Of a stretch of 64,000 nt of DNA, positions 5,966 through 64,000 are shown in pieces. The stretch is from Paraspadella gotoi (lineage: Eukaryota > Animalia > Chaetognatha). Position numbers and translations under genes: made by a program. The stretch covers positions 21,795,582-21,859,581 of the forward strand of contig CM119264.1 in NCBI GenBank assembly GCA_051294375.1, read 5' to 3'. Position 1 is the stretch's first letter, and the number at the start of each line of letters is the position of its first letter. The notes under the pieces are model-generated. The model was not told the DNA's origin. It made no database searches and worked only from the letters and a program-made list of their open reading frames with translations.

Positions 5966-8900
5966 TCATCTAGACGGAGCTTCCAACTCCAGGTCCAGCA
6001 GTATCTGTCCCATGGCCTTTCCTTGAGGATCGACCCTGAGCGATGCAATTCCTCCTCCTCCCAACACCTCCTTGAGCACGAAGTTGAGCCCGTGAATCCC
6101 GGGAACTTTAAATCTGTCGACATGGGATTCAGCAGAAGCAGATGGAGGAAAGAAGTGATGGAAGTGGTCGAAGACCCTTTCGGCGGTCAGTTGGCGGCAG
6201 AGTTCGGGGTAAAATTCGGGAGAACGCGCCACGACGCCAATATTGACATTGTCGCCCTTGTCGCCGCTCCGTGCGCAAGCCACGGAAGCAAGAGTGACGG
6301 TGACGCCCGAGAAACGCTGTGTTGTCTCTATTGCAGAAATTTGTATAATTAAACTGATAGAATTACGTCTACAACAAACAACAATAGTAAGGTAACTCTC
6401 AAAGTATAGATCATCTATGAACAGTTATTTCACAAAAAGTGCTTCAGTACCACCCCAATTTATTTTTAGTTATTTTCTCCCAGGTTATTTAAACGTTAAG
6501 TATTCTTCTCGATTTAAAATTAAATAAAATACCTGCGTCCGTGTCATCCAAATCATTCGCTACGTTATGAGCCGCGAAGTTGGCCTCGTCGTAGTGCACT
6601 TGATCTTCGTCTTCGTGAAACAGACTCTCCTTCCATTCGCTGTCCACGTAAATATCGACGTTTACGTCTTTTTTTGCCCACAAAAACGAGTAGAGACGAA
6701 GTACGGGTGACGCCTTAATTGTAATTGTAATTAATTAATTGTAATTCCTAATCATGCTTCAAAAAATAAAATCCCTAAGAGACCTTCGGTCTGCCGCCGA
6801 CCATTCCACAAAGCCCAGGTGCCATTCCAGTGCCGGCAGGCGCCACCTCACGCGCTAAGATTTCTAGCGCCTGCTTCTGCCGGTGGCGCACAGCCAGCCA
6901 GAGTACTACTTCTCTACTGGCCAATTCTGAAGCTCTTGCCTACGCGTCAATTACAATATGAAAAAAATGTGAAAATTAAATACATTTGCCCCCCCAAAAA
7001 ATCATAATACAAAATTAAGATTTACAAACTTTTTGTCCGTACATGTCCCCTGCTCCGTGAACTTGAATTTCAGTGGCTGTGAAATCCTCTAACCCAAGTG
7101 TACGAAAAACTACACGTGCCCGCCTTAAAATAGCGTCGGCCGTGGCCCGCGCTTTTTCGCGTGCATCTCCGCCGGCGACCGGGCACACGGCCGTGAGTTT
7201 GAAACCATCATGGTAGGTGGCGCAGACTTTAAAATTCGGCGGAGGTCGGAGTCCTTTAGCTCCTCTAAATATATAAGGAAGTTAACAATACTCATCGTCA
7301 AGAGCCTTTTTCACTTTAATCACTTTAGTTTTTGATCGCATTATGTTATGAATTCATTGACGGAAATTCACCTGACTTCGACCACATCGTCTTCAATTTG
7401 TTTAAACGTAACTTGACTAAAATCGCATGTGACGTCAGGAAGAACGTAGCGTCTGATAATTACAAAATATTTATTAAATGAATGGATATTTTTTTCTCAG
7501 GCTTATATAAATAATAATATTTTATGTTATAATAATTTAAACAGGTCATATATTTTGAAAAAAGATTTAAAATTTTAAATAATTCATTTTTGACACTTTT
7601 AATTGAAGCAAGGCTGGGCAGCTTACTTTTTATGTTAGAGCTTTCGTAAGTATATCATTCTCATTGTCAATGCTTATCTTAACTGATCAATATAAAATTT
7701 TAACACATAAATAGTTCACTCAACTAATTTTTAAAATCAATGAAATAACCGCTTATAAAATTGACACCATGTACTTAATGACATATATTTTTTTTAAATT
7801 TATATTTTCTTTCATCAACTTAAATCTTCTCAGAATTTAAAAAAACTTTTTAAATTTTATTATTATATACAAAACAAACTAACTGGGCTACTATATTTGT
7901 AAAAAAAATAACTACAGATTTACACTCACTAATATGTTAATTTGTAAAATATAACTGCTAAATTTAGATTCTAAACTTTCACTTCACCCTTCTATGTAGT
8001 ATTCCCCGATCTAATACTTAAGGGAGTGGTTTTTTCATACAATAGAAACATTCTTTGAAATATTATGCCACTTCATTGATAGGGAAGCCAGGTACTCTGA
8101 GAGTGAATAAACGAGACTGAGAGTCTTGATTGAAAGCTATGTCATTATGATTATCTTGAAAGAGTGATGGAAGCCTCAATCCACTATAGCCTGTCCAAAG
8201 TCAGGGGCAAAATAACTTATTTATTAAATGAATGAATAATTTTTATATTACTATTATTAGTTGTACCAATTTCGAAGCCTCCTCTCTGATTGGTCAATCA
8301 GAAGAAAAGACGAAGAAGCCAAGAGAGACAAGACACTTGATAATCAATTCTCTGCGTTGTTTATAAACTCATCTAAAATATAAATCATAAATATAAATAA
8401 TAATAATAATCATAAATATAAATCAAAGGATTAAAGCAACAATATTGTAACATCAGAACGTCAACCGGAGACGGCGGAAAGATTCGTAACTTTAAATTAT
8501 TGCCAAATTTCTTTTTAGTTTATGCACGTCCGAAAGGTAAATTTTAACAAAAAGGTTAAATTCCAAATGACTACAAAAAAATAAACATTAACCTAATACC
8601 AATAAAACTTTTAATGCTGATTTTTATCTTTTTTCGTCTTGGTAAATGTACAGTTGGTAGTAACATGAACATTTTTATTGCTCTTTTTCTATCTTTTCTT
8701 CTCTCTACCAACCTTGGATCCCCAATTTCGTAGAGCATCTGTTCCTTCGCCGTCATAACCGTGACGGCGCCGCCGGTGCCCTTTGGTTTCGTAAGGACGA
8801 AGGCGCCGTCGGATTTCACTTCGACGATTGGAAATCCTATAGAATCCCAGGACGGCGCCGTCGAGCGCCAGTCGGTAAGAATACCCCCTGTCGCCTGATA

Positions 8901-10168
8901 TGTAGAAACATGAAGATTAAACTTATAAAAAATTAGCCAGTTATCGAAGTGCAACAGGAAATGTTAACCTGAGCTCCGCATTCGACCAAATGCCCAGCGA
9001 GACTGCCGGCGGCGAGAAGGTCCAACTGCTCGTGTTTCCAGCCGAACCTGGAAGATTTAGATTTAAAAACCGTTTTGTCATCGCAACAAGGGCTTTACGG
9101 TTTAAACCTATGAATTAGCGGCCCGAGAACAAGAGCCGAGTCGACGCATCGACCCGTTATGACAACGTCGGCGCCCAAATCCAACGCTTTCGCCACAGGA
9201 AAAGCGCCCAAGTAGGCATTCAATGACGTCACCAGTGATGAGTCGGGAAATGGTGCTCCTTCAAAGAAAGAAAATGCTAGTATTTTTGTAAACGAGCTTA
9301 TTTAAACTTAAAACCTCTTTGTTCAAAATACATTTTAATGGATAGCTAATTTTTCATTAAAAAATTCAACTTTTTAAAAAGTATAAAAAAAGGCAAATAA
9401 TACATGCAAAAAAGCCTTACCGGAATACATTTCCTTCACTGAATCCAAGATATATTTATTTTCCGGTTTTGTCAAAGACAACAAGTCGTCCCCTTCCACA
9501 ACGGCAAGCTAAAACGTACATATAAATACCTCAAACCATATTCATAATTCAAAAACAATGTACGGGTAGTCTAATATATTCATCTTTTCCATAATTGGCC
9601 ATCAAAATAACCTTAAGCGGAATGTTAGCGGCCTTGGCGACGGCCGCCAGTTCCTGGGCACAGGCGTGAGGATTGACTCCTCCACAGTTGGCGACCACCT
9701 ACATAACAACAATGACGGGAATTCGATCGCTCGTCTCCGCCTCTACGCATCGTCATTCGTTACCTTGACGTTTTTCTCAGAGATCGATTTGAGGTGGGAC
9801 TTCATGACGAAATGGACGAAGTCGGGAGCAAAACCGGCCTTTTCAGGAGACTAAAACGAAGGGTTTCTTTACTCTTTAAGACGGAGCAGCGACCAGGGAT
9901 TCAAAAGCGAAGTCTTCCGTTCACCTTTTGCTTGGCCGCTGTCAGCAACGACATGGTGATTTCCGAGAGATAATCGAAAACGAGAAAGTCGACAGCGCCC
10001 TTGTGGATCAATTGAGGAGCCGCGACGGCGGTGTCGCCCCAAAACCCAGAAGCACAACCGATCCGCACCGAGTCGCTGCGAAAGGCGGAATTTAGAAATT
10101 CAAACAAAAGATCTCGTAAACCATGTTAGGGCCAATCGTTTTCGAATAACCTGGACGTCGAAAGACAT
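5966..10168 (-). CDS. AtuA/DUF1446-family (acyclic terpene utilization-like) protein, multi-exon
   Basis: VRIGCASGFWGD, DFLVFDYLSEITMSLL, ADVVITGRCVDSALVLGP, HLVECGAQ|ATGG, EQMLYEIGDP, ARSGDKGDNVNIGV, LGGGGIASLRVDPQGK. Introns are canonical. Confidence 0.88.
8100..8273 (+). repeat. Dispersed intronic repeat family C
   Basis: AATAAACGAGACTGAGAG...GTCCAAAGTCAGGGGCAA...GTTGTACCAATTTC recurs at 19513-19650 and 24245-24382, and inverted at ~45473-45550. Confidence 0.75.
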
Positions 10169-11111: not shown

Positions 11112-14100
11112 TCAAAAGAAATATCCCCAAATGAAGATTGCGACGACACAGAGAATTAAAGCGTTGATGTTGCAGATCCACCTGGAGGTTTTGGTTTCCC
11201 TAATGGCGCGAGGCCCGCCGATAGAGGCCAGCAAAGGGCGAGGTTCCGAGACGCCGGACCGCTTCATCTCTGATACTCCGCAGATCCAGAGAGCCGCCTT
11301 TTTCCAAAAAGGAAGGCCGTCGTATGCGGCAGCGGCGTCGATCGGCTTCGGAGTCACTTCCATATTCTTAAGATAGAAAAATTGAAGAAAATGCAGAAAT
11401 TTATGGGCCGTTGGTTGTGACATCGATATTCATACCAACTTTGATTTAAAGATTAAACTGCAATGTCATTTAAAATGGAATTCAGCATAATTAAAATTAG
11501 AAAGTTGTATTTGCAAGTGACCACTCCTAGTTACTTACTTGCGCGCCCTCGCTTAGAACGGCCGTCGACTGGTGAGAGCTGGGGGCGGTGCTCCGACACT
11601 CGGCAAGGTCATTCCTTGAAGCGAATGTAGTGTTGATGATATCTCTCCGATCTGGGGCATGAGTGAGGAGTGACACGATGATGGTGACAATGAAAACGAT
11701 TACAAAAAGTATGACCCCGAAATGGAGGTAATGCACACTCGTAACGATGGACGGAGTTGGATCGGCCTTTCCGCTCAAACAGTCGGGCATGATACCAACA
11801 TAGGTGAATTCCAAAATAAACCTGTAATAATCAAAATAATGAGAAAGAAACCTTTCTTATTATCGTTTAAACAAGTGGCAGACTATACCTGGTTAGACCT
11901 ATCGCCAATCCCACCATGAGGCCCCAAAAAGCACCTGGCTCGTTGATTCGTCCCCATGAGACGCCCAGAACAAATATCGCGCAAATGGGTGGCGCCAAGT
12001 AGGATGTTATTGACTGGATGTAATCGAACAACTGGGAACCTTGCGCCGCCTGCAAATAGAGGGTAAAGAATATTAAATGCTGTGGAAATATATATTCGTC
12101 ATGATGTTTACCTCAATAATGGGAATCCATAAAATTGAAACGACGAGAAGGGCAACGACAAATATTCTACTCACGATCATCAGTTCGATCTATTAAATCA
12201 AGGAATTAGTTTCAGGGGCAAGGAAAAGCAAAGCAATGTAATGCAAAGCTGCGGTCCTCAGTCCCCACCTCAGAGGCTGTAGATCTGATTCTTCTCCAGA
12301 TGTCCATGGTGAAAATCGTGCTTGCAGAATTAAATATGGAGGTTTGTGACGACATTAAAGCGGCCATCATCACAGCCAGCATCAAACCACGGGCACCGTG
12401 GGGCATTAATTGCATCACTAAAGTAGGATACGCCAAATTCGTGCATCCCTTCAAGTGAGGTGGTACTTAAAATCTCACAATTTGAAATTGCTTAAATTGT
12501 AGCTTGATGAAAAAACTTACCTTTCTTGATCCGCAACACGCTTCACAAATGTCCGGATCGTAACAACCCACCACATCCTGGTAGAGGATTCGGGAGATCA
12601 TTCCAGGAAAAATCATCATAAAGATTGGTAAAATTTTGATGTAGCCAGCGAAGACAGTTCCGGCCTTTGCGTGAGAAAGGTTTTTCGCCGACAGCGTCCT
12701 TTGAACTATGACTGTTAGGCGGGCCAAAATTTAACAATTTTTACAATATGAAAAAGTCTGCAATAAAAGTATTTTGTCCTTTTACAACCAAATTGCCTTA
12801 TGATGTTAGATTTTGATTAAATTAATTTTCCTCATTTTAGAATTTTAATATTTAACAATGCATAAGAAATGCTTTAAAAAATTTTTAAGAAATTTAAATT
12901 TTTAAAAATAGATTCTGATAAAGATTAAAAAGTTAAATAAAGGTTAGTACTACAAATTTAGTGAAGATTGGGAGAAAGAATTTAGTAAATTACAAAAATA
13001 TAAATAATATTTCTCTCGGCCTAAAATTCCATTCTCGTTTACATTCCTACTTTATAAACAAGTAGTTCATATAAAAGTCATTGTTATTTTATTCTCGCGC
13101 TCATTATTATTATTGCATTTCCCTTCGATGTTATACTGAAATAAACTCTCGTTCATTTTATTTGGTATCGAATTCTTTTCACTAAAAATTCCGTCCTCCA
13201 CTATTTCAAAAATTTTAATGATAAATGGGCTAAAATTTAAAAAAACCTTAAAAAATCATCATCATTCATTAAATTTTCTAGTTTTGTTAATTTTCATAGA
13301 TAAATCATTAAAATTTCAAAAAAGTTGTATTAATAACCTTCATCTAACTTTTCAAGCTCTATCAGAATTTGTTAAAAAAAAATTATTAAAAAAATTTTTT
13401 GACATTTTATAGTATTCGGATAATATATAATAGCTTCCATGCGTTTAACTGTAAGATAAATATTAAATTTATTTTTATTTTTACGATCTTTAATAAACAC
13501 ATTAACAATATTTATACCGGACTTCTGTTAGTTTGTAACCTGTTCCGCCTTAATGACTGTGAAGTGCAGTTTGATTAATATGGTCACATTCAACTTTCAA
13601 TTTATTCAACGTACTATTGCTATTTTGTCGTAATATTTGTTTTTTAAATTTACAAACCCGGAATCCGATCTAACGCACCTTGATCCGTGCACCAGTACCA
13701 AGTGGCGGAAATAGTTAGTCCGAATGTTATGCCGGTCCAAGGTAACTCTGCATCAGTCACCGGCCTCATTAAGTGCATGTAATTGGAAGGAACTCCATCA
13801 AAGCATTGTGTCAAGTTCCTTTCTGGAGTGTCCGTAGGGTAAAGCGGAATAGCTCGTGGAAACAGGCGCTCCATTTCGTTGTACCCGCCGACCTTGTAAA
13901 GCGATAAAACGCCTAAGTAAATTCCGCCGATAACCATGATAAGCGTCTCCAAGGTGTCGGTGAACATCACGGCTGTCAAACCGCCGGTGATTGTGAAAAT
14001 CGCAGAAATTACGATCCTAACGATGAGAACATTGTGCAATCGGTGATGGTTGTAACTCTTCACTAAAAAGTTTCGTACTCACAGAATGACGACCGACTCG

Positions 14101-14812
14101 TATTTGCCCTGATTCAACGCCACTTTAAGAAACAAAGCGCCGGCAAACAAATTCGCAGAAATTTTTGTGAAAACATAAAGGAGAAGGGCGAGGACGGAGA
14201 GATAAACCTAACAAAGAACAAATTAAAAGGCCAACTGAATTTATTAGAAAAAAAAGTTAAACTGTGTACTCTACTGTATGCTCTTTATATACGTAGAATA
14301 ACACTCACACTGTATATGAACAAGACTTACTTGTATTCTAGTGCCGCCAAACCGCTTTTTCAAATACTCGGGCATCGTAAACACCCCGGCGGAAAGATAA
14401 ACCGGCGTGAAAATCCAGCCCAGTAGAATTAGCACGAAAACGGCGTTCAATTCGAACATGTAGACCGCCAAGCCTGAAGCAGCCGCCGTGCCTGCTAAGC
14501 CTGCAATAATGAAAATTGCTGTTAGAAGGCTCAGCAATCACCAAACAGAGCGCGATCTATGTAGAGTCGTGGCTTACCGATGAAATGCTCGGATCCGATG
14601 CAGGAAGAAAAGAGGGATGCTCCAACCAGCAGCCAGTGCATGCTTTGACCGCCAAGGAAGAACCCATCGACGGAGCCGCGATTTTTCAGCGACGACAAGA
14701 TCCCCACGACGATGATGACAACGAAGTACAGAACGATGACGAGCAGGTCAGACCAGTGAAGATTACCGACGTCGCCCTCCCAGGCATCCGGAAGCGAAGG
14801 ACAAGTGGCCAT
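11112..14812 (-). CDS. SLC5 sodium/glucose (or myo-inositol) cotransporter-like, multi-exon
   Basis: [29 protein letters not shown]|[48 protein letters not shown]|[51 protein letters not shown]. Confidence 0.93.
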
Positions 14813-15570: not shown

Positions 15571-17598
15571 CTAATACACAAACGATCCAAAAGCAGAGGC
15601 AACGCAAAATAAGTTTTCGTTCATGTAAACATCAGATGCGAATCCGTCGGTGTCGCTGTCCCAAAAACACTTGGCCGTCGACTTGACTCCTTCGCCGCGT
15701 TGTTCCCCAATCATCACCTATAACCAGGATACGTCAGAGGAGTTGTATGAAGAAGAGGCTCTCGAAATTGCTATGGTAGTCTTTATTGTACCTGAACAAC
15801 GAACTTATAGCGCTCAAAACCGAGATCTTTCATTCTACTCTTTATATCTTCCGAAACGTCGTAGCACCAACCGGACACTTCTTTGTCGTCGTACTGCTTG
15901 CGCCCTTCGAAAAATTCCTGCAAGACCTGTGTAGTAAGGCGTAGTGAAAGTTACATACAAAAATTCTAAAAGTCAATTATGAACAACATCAGTGAATATT
16001 AATTTGTAAAAAAATTAATTTTATGTTTTTTAATTTTTGCAGTAGGCTATATTTATATATAGTACTAACCTTATAAAATCGAAAAATTTCAAAATAGGCT
16101 TTTCTTAATTTTGATTGCAGATTTGAATTCCTCGTAAAAAGTTGATAAAAGAAAATATAAGTCATTTTTAAAAATTCTTTCATTAAGTGGGTTAAAAATT
16201 AAAAAAACTATATTTAATATGGAAAAAGTAAATTTTCAGCTTAAAATATAGCTTTTTTCATTTTTGACCCACTTAATGAAGGAATTTTTCAAAAAGAGTT
16301 ATATATCTTTTTGTCAACTTTTTATGACGAATCCAAATCTGCAAAAAAATCTTACAAAAAACTGTTTTGAAATTTTAACATTTATTGGTCTAGTACTAGT
16401 ATAAATATGGCCTACTGCGTAAATTGTAAAATTTATTATAATTTATTTTATTACATAAATGTTCATTAATATAATGTTGTTCGTTCTTCACTTTTAGAAT
16501 TTTAATTAAAGTTAAATTTAGAAAATTTACTACGCCTTACTGTGTAGTAGGGTGGAGTGACGAAAAGATTGAGCGATGGAACAATTTTTTTTTTACTACC
16601 TTTGTATATGTAATAAAAAATAATTCGGCCCTTTTTCCAAAAAAAATTGTATAACAGTATCATTAATTGAATTTTTTTTATAATAATATCCCTATAAAAT
16701 CATAAAATTTCAAAATCATATTTTTTTAATTTTAAGAACAGTTTCGGATTCGCCGAAAAAAAACTGAAAAACTTTTGTAAATATGTTATATGATATTTTT
16801 AGGTTAAATCTGCGAAAAATGACCAAAACGTTTTATAATATAATAGTTTCTACTACAAAGCATAAAAAAGTAAAGAATTTGATCTTTTTTTTTCAATTTT
16901 TGACGCGGAAGACATTAAAATTTTTAATAACATATTTTATATTTTTGATCTAATTTTTTATGAAGAATCAGAATCTTTAATAAAAATTTATAAAAAATTA
17001 TTTTAAAAATTTATGATTTTATAAGGATATTATGATAAATAGGCGTAACCGCAGTCAATGGGGTGAGTCAAAAAGTTAGAGTGAATACATGCTCAAACGA
17101 CATATTTAGACATTTTTAAGAATACTTTCAACGGACAAAAAATTTCTAATATGGCTCTATACCCTAATAATTATTTTTTTAATTTTTATTTATAGATAAG
17201 AAAGCCAAACATTTTTAATTTTAAGACCAGATTTAGATAGCTCATAAAAAGTTATCTACACAAAGTATAATTCTTTTTTAAATTATTTTTACGATAAGTG
17301 TATCAAAAATAAGAAAAATTGTAAAAAATTATAATCATCATTATCTTTCGATGATTTTATCAGTTTTTTAAATTTATGTTCCCCAGTGCTCCACTCTCCT
17401 GTGCAGTGTGCAATCGAAAATAAAATCATTTAGATATAACCTTATTACATATTTTGTCGCGCATTCAAATACTTCTCTGATAGTCTCCTTAACGATAGAA
17501 CTTTTGAATTTTTGTTCGAAGGGGGGGCGAAGTTGGTATTTGCGTTGAACGTCATCCTCGTCATCTGACGCCGTCGACTTTTGAGCCGCGACACTCAT
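15571..17598 (-). CDS. TCTEX1D2: Tctex1 domain-containing protein 2 (dynein-2 light chain), 3 exons
   Basis: YQLRPPFEQKFKSSIVKETIRE|VLQEFFEG...IKSRMKDLGFERYKFVVQ|VMIGEQRGEGVKSTAKCFWDSDTD...VYMNENLFCVASAFGSFVY*. Confidence 0.9.
15935..16539. mobile_element. hAT-type MITE family A, complete (605 bp)
   Basis: TIRs TAAGGCGTAGT / ACTACGCCTTA and a perfect 8-bp TSD CTGTGTAG (15927-15934 and 16540-16547). Confidence 0.9.
17040..17372 (+). mobile_element. MITE family B, partial copy
   Basis: Homologous to the left part of 28431-28956. Confidence 0.7.
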
Positions 17599-17850: not shown

Positions 17851-18526
17851 TTAATAATAGTGTTTCTTGTGCTTGTGAAGTTTTTTCTGTTGTTTCTTCC
17901 ATTTTTTGTGCTCGTCATCGGAAGAGTCTGAAGAAGAGGAAGAGCTGCTGCTGCTTTTTCCGTGATGTTTTTTTTTCATCATCTTTTTTTGCTTTTTAGC
18001 CATTTTTTTCGCCATTTTAGGATCCATTCCAGCCATTGCCATGCCAGCGCCGACCCCCACTGGACCGCCCACAGGATATCCTAGATACAAAGTTATTTTT
18101 CATTGATGAATTACATGAAAGTTAAGAAACTTCAATATAACCTGGTGCCATTCCGTGACCCGGTGGGTAAGATGCTCCAGGCGCAGGTCGAGGGTAACCC
18201 CCAGCCGCTGGAGGATAGCCACTTGGAGCAGAAGGATATCCTCCTGCAGCAGGAGGGTATCCACCAGGCGGAGGAGGGTATCCACCAGGCGGAGGAGGGT
18301 ATCCACCAGGCGGAGGAGGATAGCCCCCAGGCGCAGGAGGGTGGACCCCGCCAAGTGGCGGATATCCCCCAGGAGCCTGATATTCGGAAGCTGGAGGGTA
18401 ACCAGTGCTCGCTGGAAACACCGCTGGCGGGAGAGGCTGGCCGGGCATCATAGGATTGTAGGGCGGAGCTCCAGGCGCTGGTGGAGGCACTTGACCAGGC
18501 CCCGGTGGGTATGGTTGATAAGACAT
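17851..18526 (-). CDS. PRR13: Proline-rich protein 13-like (2 exons)
   Basis: GGYPPPP repeats followed by MDPKMAKKMAKKQKKMMKKKHHGKSSSSSSSSSDSSD, matching the Pro-rich / Lys-His / poly-Ser layout recalled for PRR13. Confidence 0.7.
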
Positions 18527-24848: not shown

Positions 24849-24859
24849 ATTCTACTCTC

Positions 24860-31119: not shown

Positions 31120-31177
31120 TGTGTGATCAACCCTGAAAACGGATCAACAATAAAAATAACAAACGCAAGTAATCCAA

Positions 31178-46717: not shown

Positions 46718-47183
46718 ATCTACGAAAGGCGTGTCATCTCTTCGAGTCGCTGTAGTTGATCATTATAGAGATTATATTTTATTGTTATACATTCATCGCG
46801 ATTTTTGTTTTATCATTGCAGCAACAGCAGGGTAAAACATAGCCTAAAAATTTAAAAACTTTAATAATTTTTTGGGAAGTTTTGAACAATTGTGTTTTTC
46901 ATTTTTACGAAAATCATACCAAATAAGAATTTCCATATCACATCAGAAATTTCCTTTTAACAAATAGCTAATTTTCAATTCACAATAAATACGAAGTAAT
47001 TTTAATCAGTTCCATGCATAAATGATAAACACAAGTGTTAAAAGTTCGGTAGAAGGTAGAAGGTAGAAGGTAGAAGGTCGACTGTGGAATGTGAAATAAG
47101 TATAATGATTGGTGCAATGAATTTAAATGACTGGTGAGAAACATTTTAACAATTTGATAACAAATCAAAATACAATTGAGAGT

Positions 47184-49261: not shown

Positions 49262-50327
49262 TTTCTGTGATTTGTTGGTGGACGGCATGGCGGTGTTTTA
49301 ATGGCTTTTAAGTTTCTCAAAGGCACTTGTATTCACATTTTTTCCTGCTATATTTAATGGAAAGAGGAATGATTTAGAAGTAATAATCAAAATACAAATG
49401 AGTCTGATATTTATAAAATCACTGAAACTGACAATCGCGATATTACTCGGTTATTTGAAAATATGAATACATTTCACGTTATATGAGGTCAACAATACGT
49501 AGAATATAAAAAATAAATATAAACTTTACATAGTTTGGTGAAGTATCTGTTATTGAGCGTGTTGACTGCTGGTGGGGCGAATTAAACGCTTCTAACTCGC
49601 ACAGACACAATTGATTATAAAAGTTAATAAAATAATAAAAAACTTAAACGGAAGACATAATATGAAACGTTATGTTAACAAAAACGTCTAACGAGAATAT
49701 CGCATAAGTATATAAAATTATTATTAATTTCCTTTAATATTAACGGTTAAATGCTACGTCTTTTTAATTTGTTCGAAACGCGAATCTTAACCAATTTAAA
49801 CACATTTTTGAGATCATTATAAATCCAAAATAGAGACTCACGCGATTGTACAATAGAAACCATTTACGAGGTTAAAGAGTCTGAAAGACTAGAGAGAATT
49901 ACTGTAGGTGTTAATAATATAAGTACGAAATATATCACACACACTATTTTTATAGTTATTGCTCTACTTTTATTTTGGTTTCCCGTAGTTAAAACAAAGT
50001 TAGAAACTAAACCAAAAAATACCGTCTCCAAATTTACCAAACTAAAATCAAGACCATCGAAAGAATGAAAAAGAGCATTTGTTGCCCATGTGAAGGAACT
50101 GAAAGAAGAAAATAAAGCACTTTGAGAGTTAAATCTAGTACACTATAATCTCCGCAGCAAAAAATAGCCAAGAAAGAAAATTAATTGACTAGAATACGAA
50201 CGCAGGATTGTTAAAATTCGCCTGACCATCTTGGGACTTCCTAAGAGTCAACACCATATTTCAGAGCGATGGTTGTCTTGATTTGCGAGTACTAATAGCG
50301 TTTTTAACGTAGTGGGGCGCTTTCTTT

Positions 50328-53622
<3,295 letters not shown>

Positions 53623-53787: not shown

Positions 53788-54632
53788 CTATTTTGCCTCA
53801 TTCTCTCCTTCGGCCCCAGGAATAGTGTACTGAATTGGATCGCAGGGACAAACTTCGGGATTCGGGAACGGGGGCTTGGGATCTCGTTCGGGGAGGATCA
53901 TTGGTGCGAAGGTGGCTTCTTCGATTTCAGGTCCCTGAAGAATCTCGACGATCTTGAGGGCAAAGTCAAAGGCGCATCCGGGTCCCCGTGCGGTGATGAA
54001 ATTGCGGCAGACGCACACGCGAGCTTCGCTGAATCGAAAAAAAATTGTTGAGCTAAAAGTCATTTTCTATAGAAGCGCGTCCATCATTCAACTTATACAA
54101 AGCGCGCACCTGTAAAAATATCCATCCAATACTTCCTCCACCGACGGATGACTAGTGAGAGTAACGAACTTTGTCCCCTCCATCATTTCTGCTTTGGATC
54201 CTTTGCCGACGTCGTGACGATCAAGGGCGACCGGGCCGGCACAAATGGCCCCGATCCAACCGCCCCTCTTATCCTGTTCCTTCAAAATAGCGCCGACTTT
54301 CTCCGACAAGGCGAGTGCCTCCGCGCCGTGCGCCCCGCCAGGGACGATAACAATGTCGTAAGGACCTTTTTTGACGGCGTCGTCGAGGAGGGCGTCGGGG
54401 AATATCTTGACCCCGCGACTGCATTCGCACAGACTGAATCCCGCTAAGCCGGCGATAACAGTCTCGATGCCGCCTCGGCGGAGAACGTCCACGGTGATAA
54501 CTACCTAGAGTGATGTTTCGAGATCGGGAAAAAATTGGATCCAAAGTAATTCTGACTGACAACGCGGTAGAGCTACTTTACCTCCATCTCCTCAGCGCCT
54601 TCCGCCAGGAGAACTAACGCCTTTTTGGACAT
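53788..54632 (-). CDS. PARK7: DJ-1/PfpI family protein (3 exons)
   Basis: MSKKALVLLAEGAEEME|VVITVDVLRRGGI, CSRGVKIFPD, YDIVIVPGG, GAICAGP (conserved Cys), TSHP, ITARGPG..FDFAL. Confidence 0.93.
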
Positions 54633-54867: not shown

Positions 54868-55785
54868 CTGGGTTGGCAAAAACCTGGGTTTTTTTGGGGT
54901 TTTTTTGGGGGGTTTTATTGGGTTTTTTTTAAATTATAGAATATAGATAGCAGACTGTCATATTAATTCTTTTTAATATACAAATTTAAAATATTTATAC
55001 TTCTTAAGTGATTACTGATAAAAATATATAAAAATATACTGATTATATTTAATAATAGTATTAATTAATTAATATTTTTTATGGTAAAGAGAAATGTAAT
55101 AAATATAAATATTATATTTTCTAAATAAAACCTGTTACGAAAAAAGTGTATAAACTTAATTTTATTAGAAAAATTGGGCTAAAAATAAATTTTGATGTTC
55201 AAATACAATATTTGAGTTAATAAAATATTAAGGCGTTTAATTAAGCTAAGATTTTTTCCTGACGTCAATATATTATTTTCCTGCATTCTCGTTACTTTAC
55301 TCCTGGTTAGGATACCTTTTCAGAGAATTCTTTAACGTGTGACAAATATTCAAATATATAATTATATTGAAGTTTATTTTTTTCTGATAAATAGCTTTAA
55401 AAGAACCCTAACCTTGTGTTAAATAATAACGAAAGACTAGCAATCATTTTTAATGTGTTGCTCTTAACATAATTTGCGATTCATGATTAGAATTACTTAA
55501 TATAAGGAAAATGGTAGAGAAGCCAGCAACGAAAGTAATCCTGATGTAAAACATAGGTTTAGGGTTATTTTTTATCATTAAATTATATATTAAGCTTTGT
55601 AAAAATGATAGAACTGATATGATTTAAATTTTTGCTTCAACAATTTAATGTTTCATATTAAAAAATTTAAGTAATTTAAAAAAAAACAAAAAACCCCAAA
55701 AAAACCACTTTTTAGTAGGTTTTTTTGGTTTTTTTTAGCTGGGTTTTTAAAATTTTTTTGGGTGTGTTTTTTAATGCCAACCCTG
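54868..55785. mobile_element. hAT-type MITE (918 bp)
   Basis: TIRs CTGGGTTGGCA / TGCCAACCCTG, perfect 8-bp TSD ATCAGTAG (54860-54867 and 55786-55793), and subterminal GGGTTTTTT repeats. Confidence 0.9.
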
Positions 55786-55862: not shown

Positions 55863-58800
55863 TTATTTTTCTTTAGTTGATTCGGTTGGTTTTGGAATGA
55901 AGAGGGGCTGAATGTGCGGCGCTTTGAAAGAAGAGTAAGGGGACGCCGGGACGCCGACGATGAAGAAAGGGGCCTCCTTCACAAAGAGGCGCCAAGATGA
56001 CTTATGTAGCCCTCGAACGTCAAGATCCCATATGCGCAGACATTTGGCGACCGATTTCCAAGTCTCAAAATCGCCCTCATGCCGCATAACGATGTACAAG
56101 ACGCGAGGACGCCTCTTAACGGCGGGGTTGACTGTAGCGGTGGTGAAGAAGACTTCCAAAGAAATATTGCAAGGATTGCGAGCGTGATCGAGCGGAAGCG
56201 AGGCTGAAAGGAGCTGACGTATTTGTTTCTCGTATTCGGTTTGAACGAGTTTGTCCAGGTCATTTAGAACGATGTGAGGCAGGGTGTTTACGGAATGCTT
56301 TTTAAAGTAAAGCTCTTGGAAGAAGGGATTCATATTGAGTCCCTTAGAACCAAAGTGATAGGTTCGCGAAACATCGGGAATAAGGCACTCGCGGCTTTTG
56401 CGGATCGCCGGTTGGCGCATCCACATGTCCCAATCCCAGAGTTTGTCAGGAGAAGGCCAATTAGGCTCTAGTTCTTCCTTTACGGTTAATAAAAAAAAGT
56501 TTCTTCAGTGCAAGGTCGCCGGTTCAAAAATATTTGTTCATACTCCATACCTACCTCAAAAATAGACCTTTTCAGAACCCAGCCCAAACCGGGCATAGTT
56601 TCGACCCTAGTAACGAGGGAGAGATCTCCACAAGTGTGGTCGTAGCCGTGATCGTTCCACGCGGACACGCAGTAAACAGTCGGGTCGGATTCGTAGATGG
56701 GAAGCAATTGTCCGAAGAAGTAAAGAGTATCAGGTGCAACATCAAGATCCTCCTCGAAGACAGCCGTATATCTGGGTAAAAACAATGAACGAGTCCGAAA
56801 CATAGGACACTCATGTAAGGAGGTAATCTCACCGAGCTTCTGGGAAAAGAGAGAAGACTGACGAAAAGGAATGTTTATAGTGCTGCGATATTCGGGCATT
56901 CTTTTCACTTAACGGCGCATGATGTATGCTCTGAGAAGAAACACATTTGTAGGACATACAAAGATATATCCTTTTAATATTCATTCATCCTAAATATGCA
57001 CTATTATGCAGTTAAGTTAAAATAAATAGTTATCTGTTAGTTTTTAACCTTTATGCCAAAGAGATTGGCGACTTGCATAGGCTCTTGGAAGTATCCGTCG
57101 ATAAAAATGACGATCTAAAAACAAATAAATATTTAAAAATAAACGAAAACCTAATAACCTCAACTACATTTTCAACCACGAGGTTCGTACTTGAGAAGCT
57201 TCGACTCCTGAAACCGCCAACAATGACCTAAGCATCCGGTAAAGATAATGCGGCCTGTTCGAAGCGATTACAATGATCGGGAGCGCCTTGACGCGTCGAG
57301 CAACCGCGGCGTCGGGTATTGGATCTGGACGGAAAGAGACTGGCGCCGGATCGGTGCAGCTGCACACGCTGCCGTATCCTTCCAAACGGTCGCAAAAAGC
57401 GCGACGACGATCGTTTTCTGCATCCTGAAACGAAAGGTAAATCCGTGGGAAAGTGATCAAAGATTTGGAGATGAAAAGAAAATTTACTTTGGCCCACTGT
57501 TGACACTCCGTCGTCGAAAAGTTCGCCAGCAGCAGTCGAACAGTAAGCGTGACGGGGCGCGCCCACTCGGCGAGAGAAGGAGATTTCGTCGCCAATTCCC
57601 CCAAATTTTTGGGAGGAGACTGTTTTTTAGTCACGAAAGCCCACATGTCTCTCCATCCTGTAATCATTTGGTGGGGTTGAATCAATAGATATCAGAATAA
57701 TTTGAGCTCCTCAATCTCATTTGCATATTGTTGTATTCTGTTTAAGCTTTGATAAATTTTTGTTCTATTGCCCTGCAGGTTTAATATTAATATTTTACAT
57801 TGATAAATGATCATGTTTGTTTGTGATTAAAATTAATAGCTATATAATTAATGATTTAATTATCATAATTATCAGTTTACAACTTTGATTATTCTTATAT
57901 TTCCAGTTTAGTCAGTTTGAACCACTATGCCCTTACTCGCTCAACACTTAGGTTTAGCAGTCATTAAGAAAGTAACATGTAATAGCTATCCTTTCACAGG
58001 TCTATACTTGAATACATTGAAAGACTAGTTCATTAGTCTTACCAAGAAGCCAGTCAAGTAGCTTTCAAACCATTGAGTCAGTAGTTTATTCTCCACTGAA
58101 CTTAAATTAACCGATGTGTATAATCAGGGTAACCATTCTCATACAGATATACCACCCTCCAGTAGTGGTGCTTCACCCTGTTTTATCAATCAGTGTTTTT
58201 TGAATTTTTACCTAAGGCTTGCGCATAACTGCTGCCAAACTCGTCCCGTAAGAGATCTTTTGCAGGTTTTTTTAGTTGAAAAGTGCCTGTAAAAATTACA
58301 TAAAAAAAACTTAAAAGCATAAGGATCGTCGCAATCGCATAAAAAAAATCTGGATTGATAACAAATATTGATACTAAAAAAATAAAAATTGAGAAAAGAA
58401 AATTAATTTATAAACAGAAAAAAAATTATATTTTGCGATTGTAAATTTAAAAAAATAAATTATTGTATAAATTATTGTCAATTGTCATTGTCAAATAAAC
58501 TGATCAGCAGATGCAGCCCTTAAGAAAAAAAATTTAAAAAAAGAAAATTAATTTATAAACAGAAAAAAAAATTTATTTTGCGATTGTCAATTAAAAAAAT
58601 TAATAAAGTACCGAAGAAAATTAAAGTTACAGTTTCTAAAAAAAAAAAACCTTTTGTCAAAAAATAAACTGATCAGCATACACAAAAAAAAATAAATAAA
58701 AACCCGATGTTGCGATTGCGATGCCTAATTTTACGAGTTTAATCCTAATTCAATTTTTTTTTAATAAAAACGCAGAGAGAGAAAGAAAAAAAAAAGAATA

Positions 58801-60529
58801 AAATCAAAAGGCAGCAGAAGCAGCAGGAGAAAAGGGAGAAAAAGAGAGAGCCCCTGCAGACTCAGAAGGCAGCAGCAGAAGCAGCAGGAAAAAAGAGAAA
58901 AAAAGAAAGAGCCCCTGCAGATTCGTTTTTTTCCCGAAGAATCAACACTGAGGAAAAGAGAGAGTGAGCTACATATAATTAAAAGAGAAAAGAGAGAGAG
59001 AAGGAAATATAAAAATAAAAGAAGAAATTTGTTTGCTTTGATAAAACGTAAACAAAACATATTTAATAACTGTCCTGACCCAATTTTAAGCACATCGATG
59101 ATAAGAAGCTGTATAGAGATTTTCAGCCTTATACACCCAAATTTAATCATAAAAAAGGCAATCTATAATTTGGAACGCCGACGACAACGACGACGCCACT
59201 TATTCGCAATATCGTCGCAAACGCTAAGCGATTGCGACAGTAAAAAACCAAAAGGTTATGAGAATAATGCTTTTACAAAACTTAAGCTTGCTTAAGAAGT
59301 GTATTCTACCTTCATCCAAAATGGCTAAGATAAGGACTCGTCCAGGAGAGATCATATTGAGAAATAAGATTAAAGCTTCGTCTTCATGGTTAGAATATGT
59401 GTCAAAGTAACGACGAGCCATGACAGCGCCAGTGGCCTGAAAAAAAAGGGGGGAAAAATGAACAAACAACGTCGGACCTATGATAATATGGCTCATTACT
59501 AAAATCAGCTAATTTGATAAGGAGAAATCTTACAAAATTTTTTCAAGTTTATAACAAGATTTTAATTAACGAAATAGTTGTTGCGGTTGGGGTAGTTACG
59601 ATGATTAATTGATTATACTAATAACGGTAGCAGTGTGTGTTGCGGCCAATATATTGCTTTTAACTATTATTTTTAGAATTATAGTTATTGGGGTGGTTAT
59701 GGTCGTTGTTAAGTCATGATAGTGGTAATTATGGTAAATGTATTGATTGAAGGCATGTTTGGTTAATGGTTAGTAGTCTTCGTGATTATAGTATGGTTAT
59801 TGTTAACATTGCATCAGATGTTATCGTTGTGCCTGTTATGGTTGATGTGGTGATAGTTGATATGTAGTTTGTTGTTTAATTAAAGATTCAAGTTCAAATA
59901 AAATATAAAAATTCCATTAATTTTTTAAAATTATAAACATCAATGATAATTAATATAAAATTGTTTTTCTGTAGCTGTTCAACTTTTCTATTTCGTAGTC
60001 TAAAACCTGATGTAAGACAACGATGTGAATGCCGCGATTAATCCTGTCTTCCAAAACGGTCTCTCCTCCAACCACCACCTCGACGATTTCTTTTGAGGAA
60101 GTGACTTTAACGTCGACAGAGCGTCGGCTCTTCGAGGGAACGATAACGTTATGACTCGAGGGTTCGTCCACCTCATTTTCCTTTTTCTTTCATGATTTTG
60201 AAATAAATGAGAAAGATTACAAATTATAATTATTATTAATTATTACACATTATTACTCAATTATCACACCTGGACGGGAATAACATCATTTTCACTTTTA
60301 ATCTTGGACCCGTTTTCCACGAGGAATAATACATTAATGACGATACTCAAAATGAACACTACCAAAAGGAGGTAACGCACGAATGCTCCTAAATTGATTA
60401 TTTAGCAATTATTTTCTTTCCCAGATACATCTGTCGTTTTTTGCCCCAGTAGGGAAAAAATATTCATTTCTGATAAACACCTGAAGCATAATATCGCCGG
60501 CGACACCGACGGCAGCAGCATACAATCAT
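55863..60529 (-). CDS. POMGNT1: Protein O-linked mannose beta-1,2-N-acetylglucosaminyltransferase 1
   Basis: Type II TM segment, [10 protein letters not shown]|[111 protein letters not shown]. Confidence 0.95.
58311..59245. mobile_element. Helentron/HINE-like non-autonomous element family D
   Basis: Subterminal inverted repeats GTCGCAATCGC (58328-58338) / GCGATTGCGAC (59228-59238) and a terminal hairpin GTCGCAA...TTGCGAC. Second copy at 61447-62510. Confidence 0.65.
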
Positions 60530-60834: not shown

Positions 60835-63800
60835 CTAATCCAACTCATTCCCGTCGAGATAAGAATCTTCATCGGACGAAGGATCGCCGAATGTCTCATC
60901 TGTAGGTTCGGAGGGAGCGCACATTACCTTTACTTTTTTCTTCCGAAATTCTGTAGGGGCGATAAAAAAATAAATGAATTGAAAGAAATAAAAAAAATCC
61001 TAAAAGAATAGTGAAAAAATCTGAAAAAAAACGAATGATTGATTCGATAACGAATTATTTATGTAATAGTAATTGATTGATTGATTGATGTAATAGTAAT
61101 TGATTGATGTAATTGATTGATTGATGTAATTGTAATTGATTGATTGATGTAATTGATTGATTGATGTAATTGTAATTGATTGATTGATGTAATTGTAATT
61201 GATTGATGTAATTGTAATTGATTATTGACGCGATGATAACCAAATGATTGATGCGATGATAACCAAATGATTGATGCGATGATAACCAAATGATTGATGC
61301 GATGATAGTCATTCATTGATGCGATGATAGTCATTCATTGCTGCGGTGATAGTCATTCATTGCTGCTGTGATAGGCATTCATTGCTGCGGTGATAGGCAT
61401 TCATTGCTGCGGTGATAGTCATTCATTGCTGCGGTGATAGTCATTCTTATAAGCATAAGGATCGTCGCAATCGCATAAAAAAAATCTGGATTGATGACAA
61501 ATTTTGATACTAAAAAAATCACATTTGAGAAAAGAAAATTAATTTATAAAAAGAAAAAAAAAGAATAATAAATATAAAACAATAAAATTACTTATTTTCG
61601 AGTTTAATTTTTTGCAAGTGCTAAGTCTGGAGAGACATTATTGAAGGTACTTTTGTTTTACTTTTAGCCCGCATAAGCAAGCAGTTCGATCGAATGCAAC
61701 CTCTCTAAACACTGTCAACATTCCCAGACAAAAGACAAAGTAATACTTGAATCAGACTGACGAAGTGAAGTAAAGTCTAAAGTGAAGTAAAATGAAGTAA
61801 AATAAAATAATAAAGTAAATATATTTCAAAAAAAATATTATTCTAATTGATATTTAGAAAAAAAATCCACGAAAATCTCGGATAAAAATTTGGGAATAAA
61901 TGGCGATAATAAAAGTTTTTAGAGGGAAAAAATTAATCAGAGAGAAAGAGAGAGATAGAGAGAGAGAGATAGAGAGAGAAAGAAGCCAAATCATTTTCAG
62001 CAGCAGAGGCACCCAGAAAAAAAGAAAGAAATCAGAAGGCAGCAGCAGAAGCAGCAGGAGAAAAGAGAGAAAAAGAGCCCCTGCAGAGCCAGCTGCAGAC
62101 TCAAAAGGCAGCAGCAAAAGCAGCAGGAGAAAAGAGAAAAAGAATAAGCCCCTGCAGAGCCAGCTGCAGACTCGTTATTTTCCCCTATGATTATGAATCA
62201 GTTACTAGGGAAAAGAGAGAGGGAGAGAGACATGTAATTAAAATAGAAAAGAGAGAGAGAAAGAAATATGAAAATAAAAGAGAGAAAATTTGTTTGTTTT
62301 GATAAAACGTAAACAAAACATATTTAATAACTGTCCAGACTCAATTTTAAGCACATTGATGATGAGAAGCTGTATATAAATTTTCAGCTTCATACACCCA
62401 AATTTAATCATAAAAAAGGCGATCTATAATTTGGAACGCCGACAACAACGACGACGACGACGCCACTTATGCGCAAAATCGTCGCAAACATTAAGCGATT
62501 GCGACAAAAAAAATTTTCACACGGCACAAAGATGCAATACTAAATGGTTATCTACGCCCAAGCCCGTCTGGCGAGATAAAAATTAATCTTAGAAAAAATA
62601 TGAAAAAAGAGAAATTTACTCCAATAAACGAAAACAGGAAAGGACAACCAACCTGCGGACTTGGCAACGGCCAGGTGTGCAATGGTTTTGTTAAAGGCGT
62701 AGGATCCTGCCATAGGCGGTGATGCCGTCGCAGGCATTGGACGAGAGAGGGGTGAGACGTTGGCCGATAGAGAGCATCTCTCTCCCGGCAAAGGCTTCAC
62801 CTCCGCTTTTATGACCATTGCATTAACCAGATTGGCTTGCGGGGATTCCGCCTTCGTAGAATCGTCAAGGAGAAAGTCATGGCTCAATTGTACCGTCTGT
62901 GTTTCATCGTCGTTAGCCATTTCTTCCATATCGTCTTCTTTAAAACAACTATCCTTTTCCTCAATATATTTCTGAGGAGCCGGAACCGGCATCCGGTTTT
63001 CGATGCCAATGCCCGATTCGCCTTCGTCATCGCGGAGGAGGATCAGAGTGTCGATCTCGTTGGCCACAAGCCTTTCCTCCGACAAATCTGTCGACAGAAT
63101 TTCCAGCGTCGACGTCACGAGCGACGGGGAAGAGTTTGGCGTATCCAAAACTTGAAGCGGATTCTTCGGTTCCGAATTCGTTTCTTGATCCATACTAACA
63201 AACGAGTGAGACGGTATCAAAGATTTAGTTTTTTCGCCAATGTCGATGTCGACGATCAAATTGCGTCGCCTCTCGAACTCGGCTCCGCCACAAGATATGT
63301 TAAGCATTTCCTGACTGCGTTTCCACGACGAAGATACCAAGGGGACTGGCGCTAAAGACGAAGCAGTGCCGCCTGGTGAATAATCGATCCCACTTTCACT
63401 CTTAGCACGCGACAACGGAAATGGACCGAGAAGATCACAGGGAGATTTCGATCTATCGGGGCATTTCTTATTTGTCGTCGATGTCGTAGCCGTCGACCTT
63501 GTGAGTTTCGACGTGAGATCGTCGTTGTCGGGCTTCAGTTTCTCTTCCATGACCTCCCTGATGTCCGCAATACAGTCAGGTTGATCGTCGGGACATTTTG
63601 ACTCGACGAAGACAAGTTCTCTTGTTGCAACTTCGTCTTTAAAATCTGTAGACTTGCCCCACCGCTTTTCGTCTTCCGCATCGCGATCTATTCCCAACGC
63701 CCTCTTCTCTCTCTCCTCCCACAGATCTGCCCGTTCTTTGAGCCAGGGTCGTAGTTCTGTCAACACCCTCTTCATATCCTCACTTTTCTTTTTGCCAGCA

Positions 63801-64000
63801 CCGGCCTCGGGCCAATCGTTCAAAGCACCTGTCACCGATTCCTCTTGGTCGACAACATCCTCAAAAACTTCGTCTCGCGGCTCATAGGCAGCGATTTCAG
63901 GGAGATCGTTCGGGTCTACAAACGATAGCGGAGCCGCACATGGCGTATCAGGCCCTGGGAAGGTGTCGATAGAGTCGGAAGAATCCAGGACACGGCTCGC
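60835..64000 (-). CDS. Unidentified acidic, low-complexity protein (3' part; starts beyond the window)
   Basis: Open frame of more than 400 aa. A donor at ~62652 splices in phase to a last exon (~60950-60835) encoding EFRKKKVKVMCAPSEPTDETFGDPSSDEDSYLDGNELD*. Confidence 0.7.
60990..61446. repeat. Family E micro/minisatellite array (ATTG-rich plus 22-nt units)
   Basis: Tandem GATGCGATGATAACCAAATGATT-like and GCTGCGGTGATAGTCATTCATT units. Confidence 0.85.
61447..62510. mobile_element. Helentron-like family D, second copy, apparently nested in a family E element
   Basis: Same ends as 58311-59245. Flanked by the family E satellite on the left and the GTCTGGCGAGATAAAA end at ~62567-62582. Confidence 0.65.

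What the first reader, a model, noticed from the sequence alone, without database searches (positions are those of the whole stretch)
5966..64000. 17 consecutive same-strand genes with tiny spacers: probable polycistronic operons with SL trans-splicing
Seen: every gene over 58 kb is on the minus strand and the genes are functionally unrelated. Stop-to-next-ATG gaps are NOL8-MOCS3 58 nt, DJ-1-ATP6V1B 165, CDC45-PRR13 169, MPND-PTGR1B 185, PRR13-TCTEX1D2 252, unknown-POMGNT1 305, POMGNT1-DJ-1 ~304 after removing a MITE, PTGR1A-NOL8 412 and POC1-KIAA2013 466. Acceptor-like sites sit just before ATGs: TTTTCAG 13 nt before MOCS3, TTTTCAG 16 nt before NOL8, TTTCCAG 12 nt before MPND, CACAG 3 nt before POC1. 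Known: nematodes, larvacean tunicates and some other animals resolve operons by spliced-leader trans-splicing. Inference: at least two operons, ~64-29.3 kb (up to 11 genes, which would be long) and CDC45-PRR13-TCTEX1D2.
Basis: partly seen in the sequence, partly recalled or inferred. Interest (0 to 1): 0.8.

Follow-up and report, generated by a model that had tools for sequence, protein, structure and literature searches.

The report
Tightly packed same-strand genes, likely operons
In an unidentified small-genome animal, 17 mostly unrelated genes lie in a row on one DNA strand, some only 58-300 bases apart, and assembled RNA runs across the short gaps, so they are likely read as several small operons, but no spliced leader was seen and how a shared RNA would be cut into single messages remains untested.

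Summary
Seventeen intact minus-strand genes run from 5966 past 64000 (16 counting the PTGR1 pair once), bounded by a plus-strand Mob1 gene. All nine quoted gaps are exact; the seven others measure 618-4097 nt. Spliced RNA contigs of run X1 cross 5 of 8 laid junctions through the genome's own spacer, including NOL8-MOCS3 (58 nt). Short-read contigs cannot prove one transcript, and such fusions are a known artefact in compact genomes. No leader was seen (1 loose end in 29150-35900, not a leader), but contigs drop such tips. The acceptor argument is weaker than claimed. Acceptor-like AGs are modestly enriched before start codons (p 0.005-0.015), but only MOCS3 has a strong one with no donor in the spacer. 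NOL8's has a strong donor 108 nt upstream, POC1's probably lies in coding sequence, and contig arithmetic implies a cis-spliced 76-nt intron in the POC1-KIAA2013 spacer. Best reading: several 2-4-gene operons resolved by leader trans-splicing (0.45), not one 11-gene unit. Rivals: dense, separately promoted genes with read-through (0.3); leaderless polycistronic mRNA (0.15). The lineage could not be named.

The parts
60835..64000 (-). Unknown gene (3' part; runs off the window); last exon 60950-60835
   Evidence: Open 449-aa frame, no Pfam hit; last exon in frame; contig continues 4591 nt upstream of 60953
55863..60529 (-). POMGNT1, 11 exons, 649 aa
   Evidence: GNT-I and ILEI; named homologues; exon sum equals contig geometry, 1286 nt
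54868..55785 (.). MITE in the POMGNT1-DJ-1 spacer, 8-nt target duplication CTACTGAT, 11-nt terminal inverted repeat (hAT-like, label recalled)
53788..54632 (-). DJ-1/PARK7, 228 aa; contig begins at 54683, the G of an acceptor-like CAG
   Evidence: PF01965; model; contig arithmetic; site score 6.9
50328..53622 (-). V-ATPase subunit B, 494 aa; 165 nt behind DJ-1
   Evidence: ATP-synt families; all 8 introns match RNA joints; 53551-54028 contiguous in one contig
47184..49288 (-).
46844..46919 (-). 76-nt GT-AG intron inside the POC1-KIAA2013 spacer, cis-spliced in the contig (inferred)
   Evidence: Piece ends at 46919; KIAA2013 part sums to exactly 1778 nt with this intron; bin depth 182.9 fits removal, 209.7 expected if retained
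43429..46717 (-). KIAA2013 (DUF2152), 632 aa
38755..42810 (-). MPND (RAMA + JAB), 1093 aa; AG at 42823, 12 nt before ATG
   Evidence: 41937-43674 contiguous in one contig
37286..38569 (-). PTGR1 copy B, 336 aa, followed by a dead NOL8 5' stub (37053-36991)
34407..35678 (-). PTGR1 copy A, 336 aa
   Evidence: 3 introns seen as joints
34011..34118 (-). Predicted 108-nt intron in front of NOL8 (donor 9.2, acceptor 9.9); both sites absent in the copy before the dead stub
   Evidence: not seen in RNA, where the contig carries the B-type spacer
31178..33994 (-).
31120..31177 (-). 58-nt NOL8-MOCS3 spacer with a strong acceptor (G at 31133, 91st percentile), no donor in the spacer, no AATAAA/ATTAAA; best trans-splice candidate
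   Evidence: 30305-32767 contiguous in one contig
29324..31119 (-). MOCS3, 522 aa, with a roughly 115-aa N-terminal extension
   Evidence: ThiF and rhodanese; named homologues; N-terminus aligns weakly with that of P0002, E 0.007 pairwise; 3 introns seen as joints
25584..26943 (-). Intronless CUB-domain membrane protein gene
   Evidence: PF00431
22141..24420 (-). Broken duplicate of CDC45 3' half, PRR13 and TCTEX1D2 exon 1 (not counted among the 17); likely assembly artefact or dead copy
   Evidence: 99% identical to 17417-19687; 3 substitutions, 19 one-base indels
18696..21486 (-). CDC45, about 586 aa
   Evidence: PF02724; model
17851..18526 (-).
   Evidence: model
15571..17598 (-). Tctex-1 family gene (TCTEX1D2-like), 135 aa
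   Evidence: PF03645; model
11112..14812 (-). SLC5 sodium:solute symporter, about 670 aa; predicted 78-nt 5' UTR intron 14913-14836
   Evidence: PF00474
5966..10278 (-). AtuA-family gene; AG 12 nt before the ATG
   Evidence: PF07287, PF23544; start frame
3229..4969 (+). Mob1/phocein gene: ends the run on the left
   Evidence: PF03637

Best explanation
Seventeen genes lie head to tail on one strand, and the tightly spaced ones are likely transcribed together as several small operons whose shared RNA would be cut into single messages by spliced-leader trans-splicing, a step that is inferred and was not seen. The likely units are unknown-POMGNT1, DJ-1-ATP6V1B, POC1-KIAA2013-MPND(-PTGR1B), (PTGR1A-)NOL8-MOCS3 and CDC45-PRR13-TCTEX1D2. 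Shown: orientation, gaps, gene models, spliced RNA contigs that cross five spacers. Inferred: one promoter per unit, 3' cleavage of the upstream message in or at the end of the spacer, and addition of a capped leader at an unpaired AG such as 31133 before MOCS3. Genes whose acceptor has a donor just upstream (KIAA2013, probably NOL8 and SLC5) would be cis-spliced there and take a leader, if any, further up.
For: A run of 16 independent co-oriented genes has P 5e-5 to 8e-4 per window at 50-60% same-strand bias. Four stop-to-ATG gaps under 200 nt and nine under 470 nt (one after MITE removal) must hold 3' UTR, promoter and 5' UTR if the genes are independent; NOL8-MOCS3 leaves 58 nt. The MOCS3 start is supported by a weak N-terminal match to P0002. 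X1 is spliced RNA (15 of 15 joints shown and 7 of 8 fall on modelled introns). Its contigs cross 5 of 8 laid junctions through the genome's own spacer: 60480-60953, 53551-54028, 46919-48146 plus the joint into KIAA2013, 41937-43674, 30305-32767. Best acceptor scores in the 30 or 60 nt before 16 start codons exceed other spacer windows (p 0.005 and 0.015; 7 of 16 score 6 or more against 18.5% expected). MOCS3's acceptor is at the 91st percentile of 58 modelled introns with no donor in the spacer. None of the 7 shortest spacers holds AATAAA or ATTAAA (shuffled mean 2.45, P 0.03), as reported for Ciona and Oikopleura upstream cistrons (PMC1488885, passages). The well-characterised animal operons in the papers read are SL-resolved (PMC7986045 Background; PMC12460157, PMC3273482 passages).
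Against: No leader was seen: in 29150-35900 all loose ends were shown (1 among 18 records) and it lies on the 3' side of PTGR1A; in 41001-61000 only 6 of 173 were shown, all in repeat-rich introns. The test is weak because contigs drop tips. A contig across two genes shows no single transcript, and false fusions are most common in compact genomes (PMC6105091, passages). DNA in the library was not excluded by laying a silent stretch. A compact annelid genome has short intergenic regions without operons or leaders (PMC7854359, passages). Acceptor evidence is thin: 6 of 16 genes have only weak sites (14th percentile or lower) within 60 nt; NOL8 and SLC5 have strong paired donors; POC1's site is probably coding; KIAA2013's spacer intron is cis-spliced. 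AATAAA is missing within 300 nt of all 17 stops, so its lack in short spacers says little. Per genome, 0.3-3.8 such runs are expected without operons. One run, one study; the lineage is unnamed, so no prior knowledge of a leader applies.
Confidence: 0.45

Rival explanations
1. An ordinary dense genome: each gene has its own short promoter (MOCS3's inside the last NOL8 exon), 3' UTRs overlap the next gene's 5' end or read through, and the assembler fuses neighbours. The long run is a chance extreme picked out by the scan.
For: No leader seen. Cis-spliced spacer intron before KIAA2013 and paired donor-acceptor sites before NOL8 and SLC5 look like normal 5' UTR introns. Seven gaps are 618-4097 nt. 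0.3-3.8 runs of 16 or more are expected per genome. Fusion artefacts (PMC6105091) and operon-free compaction (PMC7854359) are documented.
Against: Per window the run is improbable. 58 nt cannot hold a 3' UTR plus promoter, and its strong unpaired acceptor is left unexplained. Initiator-like TCAKTY, DRE and TATA motifs (recalled) are not enriched upstream of the genes: 5 of 16 against 5.8 shuffled for TCAKTY.
Confidence: 0.3
2. Leaderless polycistronic messages: mature, spliced, polyadenylated RNAs keep two or three reading frames, as in green algae, with introns also removed from the spacers and downstream frames translated by leaky scanning or re-initiation.
For: Fully spliced contigs cross five spacers with no leader trace, and one spacer is itself cis-spliced. 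Arithmetic allows further gene-to-gene joints, none displayed: the MOCS3 contig has 1982 more nt, and a joint from donor 29128 to acceptor 27436 or 27371 would end it 109 or 174 nt after the CUB stop.
Against: Contigs are not molecules. Upstream frames are long (915 aa NOL8, 551 aa POC1) with many ATGs, whereas algal polycistronic frames are small (PMC7896298, passages). A spliced intron 265 nt after the POC1 stop would invite nonsense-mediated decay (own knowledge).
Confidence: 0.15
3. One very long SL-resolved operon of 11 or more genes from beyond 64000 to MOCS3.
For: All genes are co-oriented; the POMGNT1-DJ-1 gap shrinks to 304 nt without the MITE; a nine-gene operon is reported in a chaetognath (PMC12460157, passages).
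Against: Gaps of 1230, 1039-1066 and 1607 nt interrupt the block, and the first two hold several ATTAAA/AATAAA hexamers; no leader seen.
Confidence: 0.07

Closest known systems
Chaetognath operons (Paraspadella gotoi; PMC12460157, passages read)
   Same: Co-oriented, broadly expressed metabolic genes; operons called at under 250 bp between genes; up to nine genes.
   Different: There leaders are read directly on nearly half the genes; here none was seen. A search of its 3 supplementary text files for six of the gene names gave 0 hits, so neither kinship nor shared gene pairs could be tested.
Ciona intestinalis and Oikopleura operons (PMC1488885, passages read)
   Same: Very short or no intercistronic DNA; upstream cistrons mostly lack AATAAA; unpaired acceptor before the downstream gene, as at NOL8-MOCS3.
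   Different: SL-full-length cDNAs prove the leader there. Here most spacers are 165-618 nt stop to ATG and several acceptors have cis donors, which in SL systems favours cis-splicing.
Hydra RFC140-flp operon (PMC3273482, passages read)
   Same: A spacer of a few hundred AT-rich bases with an acceptor AG is enough to make a bicistronic unit.
   Different: Shown by transgenics and acceptor mutation; two genes only.
Green-algal polycistronic mRNAs (PMC7896298, passages read)
   Same: Closely spaced co-linear genes on one spliced RNA with no leader in evidence.
   Different: Shown by long reads, H3K4me3 and proteomics; frames are small. Here only short-read contigs, and large frames.
Compact annelid genome without operons (Dimorphilus gyrociliatus; PMC7854359, passages read)
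   Same: High gene density, short introns (median 66 bp there; most 60-100 nt here), short intergenic DNA.
   Different: Leaders were searched for and not found there; no such long same-strand run was mentioned in the passages read.

Membership tests
SL-resolved animal operons | Co-oriented genes lying very close together | tested here: met
   17 minus-strand genes; nine gaps 58-466 nt, one after MITE removal
SL-resolved animal operons | Transcription across the gene boundary on one pre-mRNA | tested here: inconclusive
   Contigs cross 5 of 8 laid junctions through the genome's own spacer, 1 through the paralogue's spacer; contigs are not single molecules
SL-resolved animal operons | Shared non-genomic leader on downstream messages | tested here: inconclusive
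   None among 1 of 1 loose ends and 6 of 173 shown; contigs drop tips; no raw reads were offered
SL-resolved animal operons | Unpaired splice acceptor before each downstream start | tested here: inconclusive
   Modest enrichment (p 0.005-0.015); clear only for MOCS3; paired for NOL8, SLC5, KIAA2013
SL-resolved animal operons | SL RNA gene in the genome | not testable with these tools
   No genome held; Rfam finds nothing above chance in the window
SL-resolved animal operons | Promoter only at the head of each unit | not testable with these tools
   No CAGE, ATAC or ChIP data; motif scans uninformative
Green-algal-type polycistronic mRNA | Single poly(A) molecule carrying two or more frames | not testable with these tools
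   Needs long reads; only contigs available
Green-algal-type polycistronic mRNA | No trans-spliced leader | tested here: inconclusive
   None seen, low power
Green-algal-type polycistronic mRNA | Poly(A) signal depleted behind upstream genes | tested here: inconclusive
   0 of 7 short spacers hold AATAAA/ATTAAA (P 0.03), but the organism's own signal is unknown

The most novel reading that the evidence does not exclude
This animal lineage, which has no named protein relatives in the searches made, expresses runs of unrelated housekeeping genes as mature, spliced multi-gene messages without a spliced leader, splicing from one gene's 3' UTR into the next gene's acceptor and so skipping MITEs in the spacers: widespread leaderless polycistronic expression in an animal.
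Probability: 0.12. Interest if true: 0.88.

Novelty: new member of a known kind. Interest (0 to 1): 0.45.

Why it matters
Operons and leader trans-splicing are patchy across animals and thought to have arisen several times. The window's POMGNT1 and DJ-1 group with unnamed transcript-derived proteins, apart from all named animals in the hit lists, so this could add a lineage to that map (about 0.3, interest about 0.6). If the lineage is one already known to trans-splice, the finding is ordinary. The public run X1 makes the question cheap to settle from raw reads. Leaderless multi-gene messages in an animal would be far more surprising.

Tried and rejected
Whole genome: none held, so no genome-wide strand statistics or SL RNA gene search. 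Parts without cover, no evidence either way: the long contigs do not cross POMGNT1-DJ-1 or ATP6V1B-POC1, and by arithmetic record 1 ends near 38631, before PTGR1B. Nothing left of 29150 was laid, so CDC45-PRR13-TCTEX1D2 has no RNA test. Contig ends as start sites: contigs cannot show starts, so these stay hints. DJ-1's begins flush at 54683 with no foreign letters, at an acceptor-like site of a kind found at 0.24% of spacer positions. POC1's has 129 nt before exon 2, fitting a genomic start at 49372, or 101 nt from AG 49345 plus 28 foreign nt. PTGR1-NOL8 bridge: rejected as evidence, since the contig carries the B-copy spacer (11 of its 15 substitutions match exactly, gap sizes too) and can jump through 36 identical bases. 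NOL8-MOCS3 fusion by a 52-nt splice would be in frame, but the donor scores 1.2, the intron is shorter than any of 58 modelled, and no such joint was seen. Promoter motifs: no enrichment. Relatives' loci: the one metagenome scan kept 80 of 152 POMGNT1 loci; none of those placed on a tree (41 of the 80 were picked) fell in the window's clade, and none of the 80 held a neighbour gene among the nine others tested. Naming the lineage: three protein searches, two cluster look-ups and two Atlas searches gave no named close relative. The POMGNT1 tree is a quick tree; the clade has support 100 but its place among animals is unsure. Literature on candidate phyla: searches listed no paper on leaders in gastrotrichs, catenulids, xenacoelomorphs or similar groups (listings only); with the lineage unnamed this is no claim of novelty. 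A representatives search for the MOCS3 extension never left the queue.
Full report
Setting. The window is 40% G+C with no CpG depletion (observed/expected 1.25). Of 58 modelled introns, 43 are 60-99 nt. No whole genome is held. The last POMGNT1 exon is 57-65% identical to six unnamed transcript-derived proteins and at most 59% to named animals. In a 53-row quick tree the window's protein and those six form a clade with support 100, drawn outside the named bilaterian groups; its position is unsure. A second, faster tree with 63 rows kept the clade. DJ-1 shows the same pattern: nine unnamed relatives at 65-72%, named ones at 55% or less. No cluster member of these relatives carries a name. The organism is an animal with a compact genome; I could not name the lineage.

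Observation. Pfam scans of 146 plus 7 minus-strand frames and 214 plus-strand frames support 17 intact genes on the minus strand from 5966 to beyond 64000, and no plus-strand gene inside the run. A plus-strand Mob1 gene ends it on the left. Open exon models were built for 15 of the 17 (the CUB gene is one open frame); for AtuA only the start was modelled and for the first gene only its end. All nine quoted gaps are exact; the other seven are 618-4097 nt. PTGR1A and B are tandem paralogues (91.4% nt; 61 synonymous and 20 non-synonymous codon changes). A broken copy of part of CDC45-PRR13-TCTEX1D2 (22141-24420) differs by 3 substitutions and 19 one-base indels, which looks like unpolished long-read sequence or a dead copy. 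A run of 16 or more in 18 genes has P 5e-5 at random orientation and 8e-4 at 60% bias; per 20,000 genes 0.3 and 3.8 are expected. So the run favours a genome with a same-strand bias but does not prove one.

RNA. One run, X1, holds 0.78 of the words of 29300-36300. It is spliced RNA: all 15 joints shown for 41001-61000 (of 55) and 7 of 8 for 29150-35900 fall on modelled introns. Four long contigs cross gene boundaries: unknown-POMGNT1 (60480-60953 unbroken), DJ-1-ATP6V1B (53551-54028), POC1-KIAA2013-MPND (46919-48146; 41937-43674) and NOL8-MOCS3 (30305-32767), the last continuing 1982 nt past 29150. Of 8 junctions inside the laid ranges, 5 are crossed through the genome's own spacer. One (PTGR1-NOL8) is crossed through the spacer of the other PTGR1 copy and is probably an assembly chimera. 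Two are not crossed by the long contigs, which proves nothing. The tool warns that a contig across two genes shows no single transcript, and false fusions are commonest in compact genomes (PMC6105091, passages). DNA in the library was not excluded.

Leader. In 29150-35900 the only loose end among 18 records lies on the 3' side of PTGR1A and is not found in the window. In 41001-61000 only 6 of 173 loose ends were shown, all in repeat-rich introns. Depth bins over the POMGNT1, KIAA2013, MPND and MOCS3 starts are explained by the long contigs alone. Contigs drop short side branches, so a leader at a crossed junction would probably be lost; the result is inconclusive, not negative.

Splice signals. 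Matrices from the 58 modelled introns were used to score AGs before 16 start codons. Scores are higher than in other spacer windows (p 0.005 for 30 nt, 0.015 for 60 nt; an earlier pass with two wrong starts gave 0.045), but 6 of 16 genes have only weak sites. MOCS3 and NOL8 have strong ones (91st percentile). NOL8's has a strong donor 108 nt upstream, SLC5's one 78 nt upstream. POC1's CACAG is weak and lies within an in-frame extension from ATG 49288. In the POC1-KIAA2013 spacer the contig leaves the genome at 46919; the KIAA2013 part sums to exactly the 1778 nt required if a 76-nt GT-AG intron ending at 46844 is removed, and the bin depth agrees. Paired acceptors are cis-spliced in SL organisms (PMC1488885, passages), so these three sites are poor trans-splice candidates. 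The MOCS3 site is the good one: 58 nt between stop and start, no donor in the spacer, no poly(A) hexamer, and a start supported by a weak N-terminal match to P0002. None of the 7 shortest spacers has AATAAA or ATTAAA (P 0.03), but AATAAA is absent within 300 nt of all 17 stops. Recalled promoter motifs are not enriched. Rfam finds no SL RNA in the window.

Mechanism. Most likely the close genes form several units of two to four genes, each from one promoter, with upstream messages cut in the spacer and downstream ones capped by a trans-spliced leader (0.45). Orientation, gaps and contig bridges are shown; shared promoters and the leader are inferred from the fact that the animal operons in the papers read work this way (PMC7986045, abstract and Background; PMC12460157, PMC3273482, PMC10282587, passages). 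A dense genome with separate promoters and read-through stays a strong rival (0.3; compare PMC7854359, passages). Leaderless multi-gene messages as in green algae (PMC7896298, passages) would fit the cis-spliced spacer and the missing leader but have only contig support (0.15). One 11-gene operon is unlikely (0.07), given gaps of 1230, 1039-1066 and 1607 nt.

Novelty. Operons resolved by leaders are known from nematodes, tunicates, flatworms, chaetognaths and Hydra. This would be a new member of that kind, and news only if the lineage is one without a record. Earlier notes of this scan hold nothing for this genome and three similar unproven candidates in other genomes. Interest 0.45: a real and testable arrangement, with partial RNA support and no direct sign of the proposed mechanism.

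Noticed in passing
window 30772-31119 (-): MOCS3 carries a roughly 115-aa N-terminal extension with no Pfam or Atlas hit; an unnamed relative (P0002) has a weakly similar N-terminus (E 0.007 pairwise). Possibly a lineage-specific domain.
   Followed up: partly
window 22141-24420 versus 17417-19687: 99%-identical duplicate of CDC45 3' half, PRR13 and TCTEX1D2 exon 1 with 19 one-base indels and 3 substitutions, flanked by pieces of an AT-rich repeat; likely assembly artefact or dead copy.
   Followed up: partly
window 36991-38666 versus 33932-35783: The PTGR1 tandem duplication copied the NOL8 start as a dead stub; the spacer before the stub lacks both the donor and the acceptor found before the real NOL8.
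   Followed up: partly
window 34162: A contig of the PTGR1A 3' UTR continues into 31 letters not found in the window: structural polymorphism, a repeat copy elsewhere, or a chimera.
   Followed up: partly
window 54868-55785: 918-nt MITE with an 8-nt target duplication; a donor-like GT at 55781 in its left end, if joined to the CAG at 54683, would remove almost the whole element and would match where the DJ-1 contig begins. Not seen as a joint.
   Followed up: partly
window 49529: The ATP6V1B contig ends 798 nt after the stop, at the G of a weak GT and 19 nt after AATAAC; extra unexplained depth lies in 49005-49671.
   Followed up: partly
window 58310-59246 and 61446-62513; 15960-16503, 51538-51977: Several AT-rich repeat families, some palindromic, fill the long introns; some carry TTAGGG-like tracts (51511-51539, 21700-21760).
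   Followed up: no
window 25584-26943: Intronless CUB-domain membrane protein gene among intron-rich neighbours, with strong splice sites upstream at 27371-27506 suggesting 5' UTR exons.
   Followed up: no
window 170-2700 (-) and 3229-4969 (+): A sulfotransferase gene (HS2ST1-like, label recalled) lies head to head with Mob1, so divergent pairs do occur next to the run.
   Followed up: no
P0264: A related DJ-1 sits on a 2588-nt contig, long enough to hold a second gene, while most relatives' contigs are about 1 kb; its DNA could not be fetched.
   Followed up: no
window 53018-52948, 38429-38336, 35538-35445: GC-AG introns in ATP6V1B and both PTGR1 copies; two of the three were laid and seen as RNA joints.
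   Followed up: yes
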